This document shows positions 172 to 49,629 of a DNA stretch of 64,000 nt, piece by piece. The stretch is from Octopus vulgaris (lineage: Eukaryota). Under the pieces are notes generated by a model. It did no database searches and was not told the DNA's origin. It saw only the letters and a list, made by a program, of their open reading frames with translations. The stretch lies in contig OX597815.1 of the NCBI GenBank assembly GCA_951406725.2, forward strand, positions 86,490,001 to 86,554,000, in the 5' to 3' direction. The first letter of the stretch is position 1. Each line of letters starts with the position of its first letter. The translations under genes and the position numbers were made by a program.

Positions 172-352
172 TAATAACATCGAGAAATACCTTAGGAGTG
201 AGAACCCAGGTTCGAAATTTCCCCAAGTTGAAGGTTGGAGGGTATATCAGCTGAAACGTTGTGTTAACAACAAACAAGATGAGGACAAATATCCGTAAAT
301 TGTAAATAATGTAGATAATGTACATAATTCCTCATCTCTTAAATATAGAACT
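89..352 (+). mobile_element. tRNA-headed SINE-like element with a degenerate hammerhead-like body
   Basis: Box A TGGCGTAGTGG (~96) and box B AGTTCGATTCC (~140). Downstream are a GGTTG/CAGCT stem and GAAACGTT (~233-259), resembling the 3' half of a minimal hammerhead. Confidence 0.6.
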
Positions 353-437
353 TCAGTATATCACATAACGGATAACCAAATATATCTCGAGGTAAAAAAA
401 TTAAAATGTCCGTGGCAGGTAAGTTTCACACTTGCAG

Positions 438-606
438 AATAATAATAATAATAATAATAATAATAATAATAATAATAATAATAATAATAATAATAATATT
501 AATAATAATAACAATAATAATAATAATAATAATAATAATAATAATAATAATAATAATAATAATAATAATAATAATAATGATGATGATGATGATGATAATA
601 ATAATA
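438..606. repeat. (AAT)n/(GAT)n microsatellite
   Basis: Directly visible. Confidence 0.98.
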
Positions 607-1132
607 CTCATGGCTTCTGATCTTAACTGATGGAAGTGTTATCATGTACATTGTTTTGTCTTGGTATAAAAGATGGACTACAGCAAATATTCTGCTCAAT
701 ACCATAGATTTGCTTGTCAGTTGTTTGACCTTAACCAGTTGAGCATGTCCCTTAGTGGCTGACAATACGTGCATCTCTGATCACGGGCAGAAGTAGTGGG
801 GAAGCATCATAGCCATGTGTTGAGAGGGATTATTTGGGGTTTTAATAATTCACCTTTGGAAACATGGGTGTTTCGTTCAACATCCTAAAGCAACCCTTAT
901 TCAGGGACCTTTTGAGCAGGATGGGCTACTCAACCTGAAGAAAATTCTAACTGGGCCCCACCTGCAAGGTCATGTGCTGTTTATCTTGATATGAGATCAC
1001 CATGTCGCGCACATATGGTTGTGATACATGTGCCTGGTGTACCCTTATCAGACGGGTAGTCATGATGGGTATGCTGGGCTTTGTATATTTTACCCCAGTG
1101 TCACTTTGATGGCATGCACTGCTCTCTCACAC
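607..1132 (+). mobile_element. ~520-bp interspersed repeat embedded in (TAA)n; probable 3' UTR or non-autonomous derivative of an R4/Dong-type LINE
   Basis: Its 3' part recurs inverted at ~48170-48395, directly adjoining LINE ORF sequence, and its 5' start recurs at ~19665-19700. It is flanked by TAA repeats on both sides. Confidence 0.7.
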
Positions 1133-1308
1133 AATAATAATAATAATAATAATAATAATAATAATAATAATAATAATAATAATAATAATAATAAATAATA
1201 ATAATAATAAGAAGAAGAATAAGAAGAAGAAGAAGAAGAAGAAGAAGAAGAAGAAGAAGAAGAAGAAGAAGAAGAAGAAGAAGAAGAAGAAGAAGAAGAA
1301 GAAGAAGA
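1133..1308. repeat. (AAT)n followed by (GAA)n microsatellite
   Basis: Directly visible. Confidence 0.98.
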
Positions 1309-1519
1309 GTCCAATGATATTGAAGCATCAGAAATAATAAGAATATTAGAATAAATGACTTAAAATATTTAATTTTATGATTTGACATTCTAAGTTCGGA
1401 ATGCCAATATACACAATTTTGAGGGGTTAAACGTTATGTTTATCTTCTAGCATCAATTAAATAATTACTACTTATCTAATATAGTTGAATTCATTAACTA
1501 TACCCTTGTTTAGGTCGAC

Positions 1520-2560
1520 TTCTTCCAGAGAAAAGTCCATCAGCATATTCACAAATTTAACAACTTTGACAGTCACATTGATTTTGAACTTGAACACTGC
1601 GTCTTCACCTGATCTCTTTCTTTGCATGACTGTTTTCGAAACTTGTTTAAGATGAAGTAAGTTTCGACAGAATATATGGGTCAACAGGGATCTGTTTGCA
1701 CAATACGAGTCAGAACCAACAATGCATACAAAATTAAACTTCTCGGAGATAGAAACAGAATTAGAGAGGCATGAGAGAAATTTCTGAACACCATGAACTT
1801 CCAGAAGATGGCAAAAGGCAACAGCAACTTACCATCCTTCGCCAAACACACCATGTTTACAATATATACATATATATATATAAAAGGAAGGGTAGCATTT
1901 CCAGAGATGGCATACACTTACTGAGACTGCATTACTTTGTTGACGAAATAACTACTGCAATCTCTAGAAAGGGTCTAAACCTATAGATGAGGAAATTCAT
2001 ATATGTAAATGGTTTAACGGAGAGCAGCAGTATGTGCACACTGTCACAGTTCCCCGTAAACAATGCCGACATGTGTTCAAAGACCCATTTTTTGTGACAA
2101 CATATCTGGAAACAAATGTCATAGTTGTTACATCGGAAACACATTGTGAAAACGGCATGTCTACATCGAGGAACAAATGCGGACAATAAAACGTACAGTC
2201 AAGATGCACTCAATATATAATGCTACACCAAATAATCCACAGTCTTCAATAACATCACAAACAGAAGCATTGTTTATTTGAAAAAGAAAGATGCCATCCT
2301 TACTAATTGACGCAATTCTTCTATTGACTATAGACGAGATCTCCGCGAGACAGATTGGTTATTATATCAATAGCAGCTATCTAAGGAAATGGTAATCTGC
2401 TATCGGAGGAACAGGTTGCAACTAACTGTTAGTGTTGCACTTAATATCCACAAGTCTGAACCGATCATACAGCGATTCTAGAAAGGAGCTGTAACGTGCT
2501 ATTTGCGCACAACTTTTCCATCAATTCCAGAGTTTTTTTCATCTGTGGAACCGTTGGTCT
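1520..2560 (+). pseudogene. Highly decayed Helitron RepHel / PIF1-helicase relic
   Basis: Frameshifted manual translation gives, in order: EIETELERHE...SEHHELPE, KFIYVNG (region before Walker A), NVIVVTS...NVQSRC (cf. VIAVASSGIAA...TAHSRF), LLTIDEIS (Walker B), IGG and PIIQR. These are collinear with PIF1 motifs but weak. Confidence 0.45.
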
Positions 2561-47262: not shown

Positions 47263-47944
47263 CTGTAGCTGCTCGAGCAATTTTCTTGCGCAGCTTCAGT
47301 AAATATGTATCTTCCATGGAAAGGAAAGGATTCGATGAAGGAAAAGGAAAGAATGCGATCAAGTATATGATTTTCTTTTTCTCGTTTATCGAGTATTGTT
47401 GCAATACATTTGTGAGCAAACTGAACATCGTGCGTAGTTATGTTTATTCACTTCACCTATTCTATTTCAACACTAGAAACCTCTGTTAACTCTTGATTCT
47501 ATAAATGCAACACGTTGAGCCCATCTTTCAAGAACCCATGTACAAACGCTCTGTTATTTGACGAGAATGTATCTTAAGCACACACTTGCACGTATGATTC
47601 TGTGTGCGTTTGTATGCATTTTTGTTATATATTAAGTTGCGTGCGACTTCGGCTGATTGTTTCTGTATATGTATTCGTGTAAACATGCTTCCGTGTCGAA
47701 TTATTTTGAGTTACATCTAGTCAAGATAATGTACACATTCATATTTATCTTATTTACTCTTATACATTTCCCAAACATGTGAAATTAAAATGCGGGAATT
47801 GTGTCATTATTTATATTTCATAACCAGAAGCATCCATCAATTCGATGTTAATTCTATTGACTTAGGTTTGAGTGGAAAACGGGGCTTTGATTCCATGCCG
47901 TCCTCGGTGTTTGAAATCTATATACACATCCTTAATGTGCCGTA

Positions 47945-48120
47945 AAGGCAGTGAGCTCCAGAATTGTTAAAACGCAGGGTAAAATGCTTAGCAGCATTTC
48001 ATCCGTCTTTATGTTCTGAGTTCGAATTCCGCCGAAGTCGATTTTGCCTTTCATCTTTTCGGAGTCGAAAAAATACCAGTCGATCATAGGGGTCGCTGTA
48101 ATCGACTAACCTCCTCCTCT
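47945..48120 (+). mobile_element. Nin-domain SINE
   Basis: GTTCTGAGTTCGAATTCCGCCGAAGTCGATTTTGCCTTTCATC. Confidence 0.85.
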
Positions 48121-48169
48121 GTTATTACTTACTTTGTGCAAAGAATTATTATCGTTGCAAAGTATTATT

Positions 48170-49308
48170 ATCGTTGTTGAGAAAGCAGTGCGTGCCATCG
48201 AAGTGACACTCAGGTACAAATATACGAGGTCCAATATACCTATCATGATTACCCGACTGATAAGATTACACGAGGCACATGCATCACAACCATATGTGCG
48301 CGATAATGGGAACTCATATTAAGATAAACAGTGCATGACCTTGCAGGTGGGGCCCAGTTAGAATTTTCTTCAGGTTGAGTAGTCCATCCCGCTCTTCTAT
48401 TTCCTGAGTCTTATGTGGCTCCTTTACTTCTATCTTGCCAATTTCCCGATAAAAGTTTTTTTGCATCCGTCCTGAATACTTTGTTTTGTCGATAAAATGT
48501 TTATCCTCTTGTCATACCTTCTGGGCCACTGGCCTTTCAGTTGTATTCATTGTTTCACTCGTTCTTTTGGTTGCAGGGAGTTTTATAAAATCTTTGATTT
48601 TATATTTCGGCTCGATTTTTCTAGCCCGTTTCGTCTTAACATTTACTCCTCCAGCAAGTCCATCGAGAACTGATACATCCGCCCACAAAGATTCGATCTC
48701 ATTTTGTATTGCTACTTTCCATTTAGAAGGTCCATTGTTATAGTTGGTCCTTTTCCGTGTCGTCCTGATACCTAGTTGGACAGTTACAACTTTAGAAGTG
48801 GAATAGATGAGGTTATTTAAGGTTGTTAGGTCATCTCCCTTATTTCTTACGATCTCTTTAAGAGCTATACTATATATCATGATTACGTAGTTTTTTAATG
48901 TTGTTTGAGAGCTTTGGCAGCGGTTCTCTATTGATCATGTCAGTAAATTCAGTCTTGCTGTGTTCTCTCATAATATCTTTTTGTTGCTTCTATGGTCTTC
49001 CCTTTATTATTCACCTCAAATTGTGTGTCATATCTATTATGGTGTTATTGATGTAGGTCCTCTTTTTCCGCATATATGTTCTTGGCTAATCTTTCTTCAG
49101 CTTCCTCGTTGGGATGTACTGCTCGTACACTGGGTTCTCTGCATTGGTTACCTATTTCATATGCATTGTTGTTGTTTCAATTTGGTCTCCATGAGATATT
49201 TGTGTCCTAATTTGTCTAATTTCAGCGTCAGTTAACCGTTACATTCTTAATTATTATTTTGTTTGACTTTTCTAGTCCGTTTCGTCTTAACATTTACTTT
49301 TCTAGCAA
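48170..49308 (-). mobile_element. R4/Dong-type LINE fragment: N-terminal ORF region joined to the 520-bp 3' repeat
   Basis: ORF 48512-48880 reads LTTLNNLIYSTSKVVT..PSKWK..IQNEIESLWADVSVL. 48170-48395 is the reverse complement of ~915-1132. Confidence 0.8.
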
Positions 49309-49377
49309 TACATATATATATATATATATATATATATATATATATATATATATATATATATATATATATATATATAT

Positions 49378-49629
49378 TTCAACAATATAAAGGAATGGCC
49401 CTGGTAGGCCATCCGTCTCACCAGAAAGAGCAGCCATACTCAAACCGCTAAATAGTAGTAATTCAGAAATCAAAGGAAAATCAAAAACAGTTACCTTAAT
49501 CATCCTTGGACAATGCATTGTTTCGACGTACTTTATGGCAAACCAGCCTAATTGAATTAAATTAAACTTAATCAAGTCAATCTACCACTGGCTCGTCTCA
49601 TCGGCAAGGAGCCAGTGGTAGATTGACTT
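49378..49629 (-). mobile_element. Solo Penelope pLTR-like unit inserted in (TA)n, with a 21-bp fold-back at its 5' end
   Basis: Contains a complete hammerhead. A perfect inverted repeat lies at 49574-49594 / 49609-49629. (TA)n flanks both sides. Confidence 0.8.
49503..49610 (-). ncRNA. Type I hammerhead ribozyme variant (U4C) with a ~65-nt stem II insert
   Basis: TCCTTG-CCGATGA-GACG...CGTC-GAA-ACAATGCATTGT-C-CAAGGA. Stem I is 6 bp, stem III is a 12-nt perfect palindrome, and the triplet is GUC. Confidence 0.85.

What the first reader, a model, noticed from the sequence alone, without database searches (positions are those of the whole stretch)
225..49610. Dense collection of non-canonical hammerhead ribozymes in small Penelope-type units
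Seen in sequence: type I hammerhead layouts (stem I - core - stem II - GAAA - short palindromic stem III - NUH - stem I') at 4790, 13981, 16116, 17557, 18047, 39949 and 49503, with decayed ones at ~225 and 3082. They come from at least five unrelated sequence families. Cores deviate systematically: TTGANAA (U3-A8 replacing the C3-G8 pair) in two families plus the decayed 3082 motif, and CCGA(A/T)GA (U4C) in two. Established knowledge: Penelope-like element pLTRs carry minimal hammerheads with palindromic stem III that cleave as dimers. Inference: this genome hosts a large, diverse population of non-autonomous, hammerhead-bearing, (TA)n-targeting PLE derivatives (retrozyme-like) that a CUGANGA-only search would largely miss.
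Basis: partly seen in the sequence, partly recalled or inferred. Interest (0 to 1): 0.72.

Follow-up and report, generated by a model that had tools for sequence, protein, structure and literature searches.

The report
Variant hammerheads in Penelope retroelement ends
The nine motifs are real but mostly ordinary: they are the cut-off tail ends of several Penelope-type jumping-gene families, each carrying a hammerhead-shaped RNA predicted to cut itself only as a pair, and some families keep an unusual core letter in nearly every copy, which likely slows cutting but has not been tested.

Summary
All nine motifs are at the stated places. Three pass a strict descriptor; six are damaged copies of families that carry the motif. 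In a 1.2-Mb genome sample the descriptor gives 44 hits against 0-6 in shuffles, and positions 3 and 8, left free, pair in 40 of 44. The window's density is average. U3-A8 and U4C are family states (99 of 100, 90 of 100 and 71 of 74 listed copies). The label 'small, non-autonomous' is mostly wrong. The U4C motif at 39949 ends a Hydra-clade Penelope-like element with a reverse transcriptase-endonuclease frame. The U3-A8 family at 4790 has a 5.9-kb coding form. Only the 49503 family is a non-coding 486-nt retrozyme-like unit. A CUGANGA search would still find 23 of 39 motifs in the four main core classes. U3-A8 in Penelope hammerheads is published. Family-wide U4C, and a G3-C8 family outside the window, were not found in my searches, but one key paper was unreadable. 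This scan noted both before on other DNA. Cleavage is untested.

The parts
222..266 (+). Decayed copy of an abundant, mostly canonical-core (CTGATGA/CTGAAGA) minimal hammerhead family with ACGT stem III; stem I 5' strand and core start deleted here
   Evidence: (13 copies in 1.2 Mb)
3079..3125 (-). Dead copy (U16.1 to G) of an old U3-A8 family, core TTGATAA
   Evidence: TTGATAA in 6 of 9 rows, two of which are the window copy itself
4361..4915 (+). 5'-truncated 3' end of PLE family A, between (TA)n runs
4790..4834 (+). Intact U3-A8 hammerhead layout (TTGACAA, U10.1-U11.1 mismatch, stem III ACCGGT, N17 = U at 4828)
13980..14021 (-). U3-A8 hammerhead of family B (relative of A); this copy has G17, family has A17
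14584..14625 (+).
16115..16221 (+). Canonical-core (CTGAAGA) hammerhead with long stem II, U10.1-U11.1 mismatch; CpG-decayed stem III; family C, element 16012 to about 16490
17556..17601 (-). Damaged U3-A8 hammerhead of an older subfamily of family A; inverted partner of 18046-18090
18046..18090 (+). Damaged U3-A8 hammerhead of the older family-A subfamily (N17 = C at 18084)
39949..40008 (-). Intact U4C hammerhead layout (CCGAAGA, stem III ACTCAGAGT, N17 = U at 39955) in the 3' pLTR of a Hydra-clade PLE
40236..41459 (-). 407-aa stop-free frame: RT core (YKDD), CxCX5C linker and GIY-YIG endonuclease of the Hydra-clade PLE
   Evidence: (GIY-YIG E 0.033, below cut-off)
41422..41752 (-). Upstream RT part in another frame (to 41694) followed by a short inverted piece (41693-41752): 5' truncation with inversion
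49378..49626 (-). Truncated copy of the non-coding 486-nt family E unit, between (TA)n runs, with a 5' fold-back (about 49567-49626)
49503..49610 (-). Intact U4C hammerhead layout (CCGATGA, 73-nt stem-loop II, 12-nt palindrome ACAATGCATTGT, N17 = C at 49509)

Best explanation
The motifs are type I minimal hammerhead sequences in the repeated ends (pLTRs) of several Penelope-like retroelement families, left in the window as 5'-truncated stubs in TA repeats, and they are predicted to cut RNA only when two copies in one transcript pair through the palindromic stem III, likely slowly and likely with help from the element's protein. Shown here: the layouts, their excess over chance, the 3-8 covariation, family-wide U3-A8 and U4C states, full elements with two motifs around an RT-endonuclease frame (5866 nt apart in family A, 2590 nt in family D), a non-coding 486-nt tandem unit (family E), and one or two fixed 3' ends 33-145 nt past the predicted cut. 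Inferred: the endonuclease nicks (TA)n DNA; reverse transcription starts at those fixed internal sites and runs back through the hammerhead, so the template must be uncut read-through RNA or a re-ligated circle; early stops and fold-backs give the short and inverted stubs. Selection acts on the master elements, which keep the 3-8 pair; the solitary window copies have no same-strand partner nearby and six of nine are damaged, so they are likely passengers. U3-A8 is likely near-neutral; U4C likely lowers activity and is tolerated because uncut RNA is a usable template.
For: Chance control and free-position test: 44 against 0-6 hits; 3-8 Watson-Crick in 40 of 44 against 7 of 29 in shuffles. Family A: 1553 pattern matches against 0 controls; in the first 100 listed, position 7 differs in 12, position 3 in 1, positions 4 and 8 in 0. 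Family D: 4859 against 10; 90 of the first 100 are CCGANGA. Family E: 71 of 74 CCGATGA, none with U4. Covariation: 8 of 14 pairs change on both sides across 11 A/B sequences; 7 of 14 across 4 retrozyme-like sequences, including C3-G8 to U3-A8. Coding forms: 717-aa frames, 776-aa frame with Pfam RVT_1 E 5.9e-8. Stem III cannot fold as a hairpin but forms homoduplexes, -1.7 to -15.1 kcal/mol for five window families. Fixed 3' ends; inverted second cores in 5-9 of 30 top loci for families A, B, D, E. Literature: dimer requirement and U3-A8 in PLEs (PMC4209133); two internal RT starts, protein-assisted cleavage, uncut RNA as template (PMC11167929).
Against: No cleavage was measured. Family D and its relatives show almost no compensatory change (1 of 19 pairs; 65 of 500 shuffles reach it). 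Alignments are small (4-11 rows), related by descent, and were harvested with patterns that fixed the core and part of stem III, so invariance of those columns is not evidence. Stem II of family A is weak and starts with U-U; stem I of family B is 3 bp. Direct tandem cores are rare among top loci (1-3 of 30 per window family), so dimer-competent loci are a minority. In the anole PLE no RNA reads began or ended at the cut and ribozyme mutants still inserted in vitro. U4C 'considerably decreases activity in vitro' in a viroid (PMC3088659).
Confidence: 0.8

Rival explanations
1. The motifs are PLE-derived hammerheads, but the U4C families (and perhaps the weak-stem U3-A8 ones) have lost cleavage; the core persists only because young families expanded from one damaged master, or because the fold serves as a binding site for the PLE protein.
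For: Families A and D are young (top copies 98-100% identical), so uniformity can be founder effect. Sister lineages of D keep U4 (L044, L171, L272) and all Hydra rows of Craig et al. File S2 have CTGA. Cleavage was dispensable for insertion in vitro.
Against: U4C recurs in at least five distinct sequence families among loci held while the rest of the core, including G8, stays. Position 7 varies between subfamilies while 3, 4 and 8 do not. C4 makes a CpG whose decay would restore U4, and CpG decay is evident in family C, yet 0 of 74 family-E matches have U4.
Confidence: 0.25
2. One reading: all units are small non-autonomous retrozyme-like elements that spread through hammerhead-made RNA circles.
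For: Family E is a non-coding 486-nt unit with cut-to-cut period 486 in L032/L036 (one locus) and L049, and copies that run back through the junction; as a circle it folds at z = -4.0 against 30 shuffles. Classic tandem arrays exist elsewhere: 359 nt canonical (L181), 362 nt U3-A8 (L207).
Against: Families A and D have long coding forms and B has PLE protein remains upstream. The window's short size reflects 5' truncation: fixed 3' ends, ragged 5' ends.
Confidence: 0.12
3. The layouts are chance matches in AT-rich repeat DNA.
For: TTGANAA and GAAA are common in 34% GC DNA; a simple descriptor found 1 of 9; Rfam has no hit.
Against: 44 against 0-6 hits, decoy anchors 0-4, and pairing of the unconstrained 3-8 positions; position 3' of PLE frames.
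Confidence: 0.02

Closest known systems
Minimal type I hammerheads of metazoan PLE pLTRs, including the U3-A8 variant of Schistosoma Cercyon (Cervera and de la Pena 2014, PMC4209133; seen: parts 1-2 of 4 of the text, no supplement)
   Same: Type I layout, short palindromic stem III, location in pLTRs, mostly solitary or inverted copies, high family diversity, U3-A8 covariation (about 1300 hits reported in S. mansoni).
   Different: Family-wide U4C and G3-C8 are not mentioned in the parts read; several families here start stem II with U-U or A-U/A-C instead of G10.1-C11.1; two have 70-80-nt stem-loop II.
Hydra clade of PLEs and their hammerheads (Craig et al. 2021, PMC8557442 / bioRxiv 2021.04.23.441226; seen: passages, section 11, supplement part 2 of 59 and search hits)
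   Same: Family D has DKT, CxCX5C linker, no CxxC before the GIY-YIG motif, a 2590-nt unit, (TA)n insertion, and a stem III of the ACTCnGAGT type with an extra base before GAA; an octopus member (Hydra-1_Obim) is listed.
   Different: All Hydra rows of File S2 have CTGA; family D has CCGA in 90 of 100 listed copies.
Non-LTR retrozymes (Cervera and de la Pena 2020, PMC7229834, passages; Li et al. 2026 bioRxiv 2026.07.22.740005, part 1 of 5)
   Same: Family E: non-coding, low GC (37%), self-paired unit with one type I hammerhead, found as monomers and dimers.
   Different: 486 nt is above the 170-400 nt reported; U4C core; mostly dispersed, truncated and inverted copies with PLE-type fixed 3' ends; circular RNA not shown.
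Natural core variants U3-A8, U4C (viroid) and U10.1-U11.1 (Perreault et al. 2011, PMC3088659; seen: passages and section 8)
   Same: Each non-standard feature of the window motifs is on record as a natural or tolerated variant.
   Different: There they are rare single examples; here they are fixed in repeat families of hundreds to thousands of copies.
Anole Poseidon PAc (Frangieh et al. 2024, PMC11167929; seen: passages and section 3 part 1 of 2)
   Same: Two fixed 3' ends (tail), AT-rich targets, hammerhead in the pLTR.
   Different: Canonical core; C3G/G8C was made in the lab as a partial rescue, whereas a family in this genome carries G3-C8 naturally.

Membership tests
Type I minimal hammerhead ribozyme | Core G5 A6 A9 and G12 A13 A14 with A15.1-U16.1 and N17 not G, between stems I, II, III | tested here: met
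   Met in 4790, 39949, 49503 and in the usual state of all seven families; individual copies 225, 3082, 13981 fail.
Type I minimal hammerhead ribozyme | Watson-Crick pair between positions 3 and 8 | tested here: met
   40 of 44 sample hits against 7 of 29 shuffle hits, positions unconstrained.
Type I minimal hammerhead ribozyme | U at position 4 | tested here: not met
   C4 in families D and E; met in A, B, C, 3082. U4C is a recorded natural variant with lower activity, so it marks a variant, not exclusion.
Type I minimal hammerhead ribozyme | Compensatory changes in stems I and II | tested here: inconclusive
   Present across A/B and a retrozyme-like set outside the window; nearly absent in D; not counted for C, E, 225, 3082.
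Type I minimal hammerhead ribozyme | Site-specific self-cleavage after N17 (as a dimer) | not testable with these tools
   No assay; only contigs available for RNA.
Penelope-like element (endonuclease-bearing) | RT followed by GIY-YIG endonuclease in one frame | tested here: met
   Family A 776 aa (RVT_1 E 5.9e-8; YLDD, YIGQT), family D 717 aa (YKDD, YVGLT; no Pfam hit for the full frame, GIY-YIG E 0.033 for the window frame). Not found for C or E.
Penelope-like element (endonuclease-bearing) | pLTR: partial tandem with a hammerhead at both ends, inverted 5' pieces, 5' truncation | tested here: met
   L177 (2590 nt), L340/L012 (5866 nt), inverted second cores in 5-9 of 30 top loci for A, B, D, E; 0 of 30 for C.
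Penelope-like element (endonuclease-bearing) | One or two fixed 3' ends giving a short tail | tested here: met
   Distance from cut to the next simple repeat: A 85-95; B mostly 53-67 or 91-109; D 33-55 or 104-120; E mostly 128-143; C scattered 152-293.
Hydra clade of PLEs (family D) | DKT in place of DKG; CxCX5C linker; no CCHH in the endonuclease; under 3 kb; (TA)n insertion | tested here: met
   SDKT at 122, CSCRNKELC at 566, no CxxC before YVGLT, 2590-nt unit.
Hydra clade of PLEs (family D) | Grouping with Hydra RTs in a tree | not tested
   No reference proteins were loaded; likeness to Hydra-1_Obim judged by eye from supplement excerpts.
Neptune clade of PLEs (family A) | GxKF, DKG, CX2-5CxxC linker, CCHH endonuclease, tree position | tested here: inconclusive
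   GLKF, ADKG and CEGC present; the linker of the one copy read has only two of three cysteines; no tree.
Non-LTR retrozyme (family E) | Non-coding unit with one type I hammerhead per tandem repeat | tested here: met
   486-nt period in L032/L036 and L049; no PLE protein match contiguous with the unit.
Non-LTR retrozyme (family E) | Abundant linear and circular monomer RNA | not testable with these tools
   Only contigs of runs guessed to be RNA.

The most novel reading that the evidence does not exclude
In this genome, young and coding Penelope-like families have fixed three different 3-8 pairs (C-G, U-A, G-C) and have moved to C4 several times independently, against a mutation bias that would restore U4. 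That would mean selection tunes these ribozymes down, or gates them by the element's own protein, so that enough uncut RNA survives as template. The families would then be a natural allelic series for testing what the hammerhead does for retrotransposition.
Probability: 0.25. Interest if true: 0.62.

Novelty: new variant of a known kind. Interest (0 to 1): 0.4.

Why it matters
The role of the hammerhead in Penelope-like elements is an open question: it is nearly universal in canonical clades yet dispensable for insertion in vitro. Active-looking families that differ at core positions 3, 4 and 8, with canonical sister lineages in the same genome, give matched natural constructs for cleavage and transposition assays. 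For annotation, a CUGANGA-only descriptor would miss about 40% of intact motifs here, of roughly 95,000 extrapolated from the sample. The kind of system, the dimer model and the U3-A8 swap are already known.

Tried and rejected
Rfam scan at E<=1: no hammerhead family, only microsatellite noise. First descriptor without bulges or long loops: 1 of 9 motifs. The repeat finder was swamped by microsatellites. PDB sequence searches of the two PLE proteins: nothing meaningful. Pfam did not recognise the full Hydra-type frame. A loose genome pattern with T at position 8 gave 71,519 matches against 44,010 controls, dominated by unrelated repeats; not used. Expression: no RNA holder listed. Contigs of runs guessed to be RNA cover the family D element and family E; one contig in X14 and one in X1 cross the family E unit junction, but genomic tandems give the same joint, so this is no evidence for circles; contigs cannot show cut ends. 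No PLE frame was found upstream of family C in 30 loci plus 2.8 kb further in one. One of two extended family-A loci (L339) was truncated and inverted and held no frame. Lunse et al. 2017 (PMC5785218), the paper most likely to list such variants, is not held: title seen in a reference list only. Literature searches for U4C or G3-C8 in PLE hammerheads; none showed them as natural PLE families. Supplements of PMC4209133 and PMC3088659 were not read and may list such variants.
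Full report
Setting. The window lies on contig C2 of a 2.8-Gb animal genome. It is 34% GC and rich in microsatellites. It looks like an octopus genome, which is my recall and not a tool result.

Observation. All nine layouts are present, and the given coordinate is the low end of each motif. 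On the plus strand are 225, 4790, 16116 and 18047; on the minus strand 3082, 13981, 17557, 39949 and 49503. A first descriptor found only 4790. It found 4790, 39949 and 49503, against 0.15 hits per shuffled window. Because it was written after seeing the motifs, I tested it blind on 120 evenly spaced 10-kb stretches. It gave 44 hits in 28 stretches against 0-6 in ten shuffles, and decoy anchors gave 0-4. Positions 3 and 8 formed a Watson-Crick pair in 40 of 44 hits against 7 of 29 shuffle hits. The classes were C3U4-G8 23, U3U4-A8 7, C3C4-G8 6, G3U4-C8 3 and five singletons. The hits fall into 21 sequence clusters, and seven come from one tandem array. This extrapolates to roughly 95,000 intact-looking motifs, makes the window's three average, and shows that CUGANGA alone finds 23 of 39 in the four classes. 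Rfam reports none of them.

Families. Family A (4790, 17557, 18047; U3-A8): 1553 pattern matches against 0 controls; among the first 100 listed, position 7 differs in 12, position 3 in 1, positions 4 and 8 in none. Top copies are 99-100% identical, end 85-95 nt past the predicted cut at a TA run in 30 of 30, and have ragged 5' ends. Extending two loci gave one full element: two motifs 5866 nt apart around a 308-aa and a 776-aa frame with GLKF, ADKG, YLDD and YIGQT, Pfam RVT_1 E 5.9e-8. The other was truncated and inverted. Family B (13981; U3-A8) aligns with A, with changes on both sides in 8 of 14 pairs across 11 rows, and 6 of 30 top loci hold remains of an A-like protein upstream. Family D (39949; U4C) sits 236 nt past a 407-aa RT-endonuclease frame in the window. 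The genome holds 717-aa frames, one of them (L177) flanked by two U4C motifs 2590 nt apart. It has the DKT and CxCX5C marks that Craig et al. give for the Hydra clade. Its pattern matches 4859 places against 10 controls; of the first 100, 90 are CCGANGA, 7 CTGANGA and 3 damaged. Sister lineages keep U4, as do all Hydra rows in Craig's File S2. Family E (49503; U4C) is a non-coding 486-nt unit: cut-to-cut period 486 in two loci, 71 of 74 matches CCGATGA and none with U4, circular fold z = -4.0. Family C (16116) has a canonical core and a CpG-rich palindrome that is intact in 9 of 30 top copies; no frame was found upstream. 225 is a deleted copy of an abundant, mostly canonical family. 3082 is a dead copy of an old U3-A8 family.

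Results against the reading. Family D shows one compensatory pair in 19, within shuffle range. The alignments are small, related by descent, and harvested with patterns that fix core letters. Direct tandem cores occur in only 1-3 of 30 top loci per window family, some counted twice, whereas inverted second cores occur in 5-9 of 30 for A, B, D and E. Inverted copies cannot form the dimer in one RNA. Six of nine window copies are damaged, and the 49503 core lies in the loop of a fold-back hairpin. Public runs gave contigs only, none on record as RNA.

Mechanism. Shown: the stem III palindromes have no hairpin but form homoduplexes; copies end at one or two fixed sites past the cut; in families A, B and E those ends coincide with short TA runs inside the element itself. 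From the literature: such motifs cut weakly and only as dimers (PMC4209133); an anole PLE starts reverse transcription at two internal sites, cuts AT-rich DNA, needs its protein for ribozyme cleavage, and inserts from uncut RNA (PMC11167929). Inferred: tandem loci are transcribed through two pLTRs; the protein nicks (TA)n and copies the RNA from the internal site back through the hammerhead; early stops and fold-backs leave the stubs seen here; dimer cleavage trims some multimers to unit length and possibly to circles. Masters are under selection for the fold, stubs are not. The internal TA run may pair with the nicked target to set the start site; this is inference only.

Comparison and novelty. 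PLE minimal hammerheads, the dimer model and U3-A8 are published. U4C and U10.1-U11.1 are recorded as rare natural variants. Family-wide U4C in a coding Hydra-clade PLE and in a retrozyme-like unit, recurring in at least five sequence families among the loci held, was not found in nine searches. Nor was the natural G3-C8 family that I met outside the window: 40 of 40 scored copies identical over 131 nt, 9 copies in 1.2 Mb, downstream of an RT and GIY-YIG frame. Lunse et al. 2017 could not be read and unread supplements may list these variants. Other agents of this scan noted both variants earlier in this and other genomes; those notes are unchecked and are not counted as support.

Verdict. This is a known kind of system with family-level core variants, one already published and two possibly not. 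Interest 0.4.

Noticed in passing
L192:8232-8299 (-), L227, L255, L283, L301-L330, L342: Young, abundant PLE family whose hammerhead has a natural G3-C8 swap (GTGAACA), 7-bp stem I, AATATT stem III; two subfamilies differ in loop II; a distant relative in L084 also has G3-C8. Not present in the window.
   Followed up: partly
window 14584-14625 (+): Tenth hammerhead candidate with a U3-A8 core and 3-bp stem I; repeat family with an inverted pair in L080.
   Followed up: partly
L181:3069-4560 (+) and 2 copies on the minus strand; L207, L194, L209, L245: Classic retrozyme-like tandem array (359-nt period, canonical core) and a related U3-A8 family (362-nt period) with compensatory changes in all three stems and in the 3-8 pair.
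   Followed up: partly
L340/L012 (family A), L032 (family E), L123-L150 (family B): Copies end at a short (TA)4-6 run that is part of the element itself; in family A it lies just before the start of the coding region. It could pair with the nicked (TA)n target and set the reverse-transcription start.
   Followed up: partly
L340:2930-3853 (-) and L340:660-2987 (-): Family A has a 308-aa stop-free stretch overlapping the 776-aa RT frame in a different phase, and a 2.1-kb TG/TA-rich 3' region; whether the phase change is programmed or damage was not checked.
   Followed up: no
window 9124-9711 (+), 19785-20228 (+), 48512-48934 (-): Frames that look like decayed LINE fragments (recall: restriction-like endonuclease and RT-upstream regions); not searched.
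   Followed up: no
window 45381-45746, 39580-39809, 15087-15266, 61193-61448: Several copies of a 184-nt SINE-like repeat, one as a tandem pair.
   Followed up: no
G000 whole genome: The Hydra-type protein query drew 33,200 first-look candidates, and 13 of 120 sample stretches match one of three PLE proteins, so PLEs are a large part of this genome.
   Followed up: no
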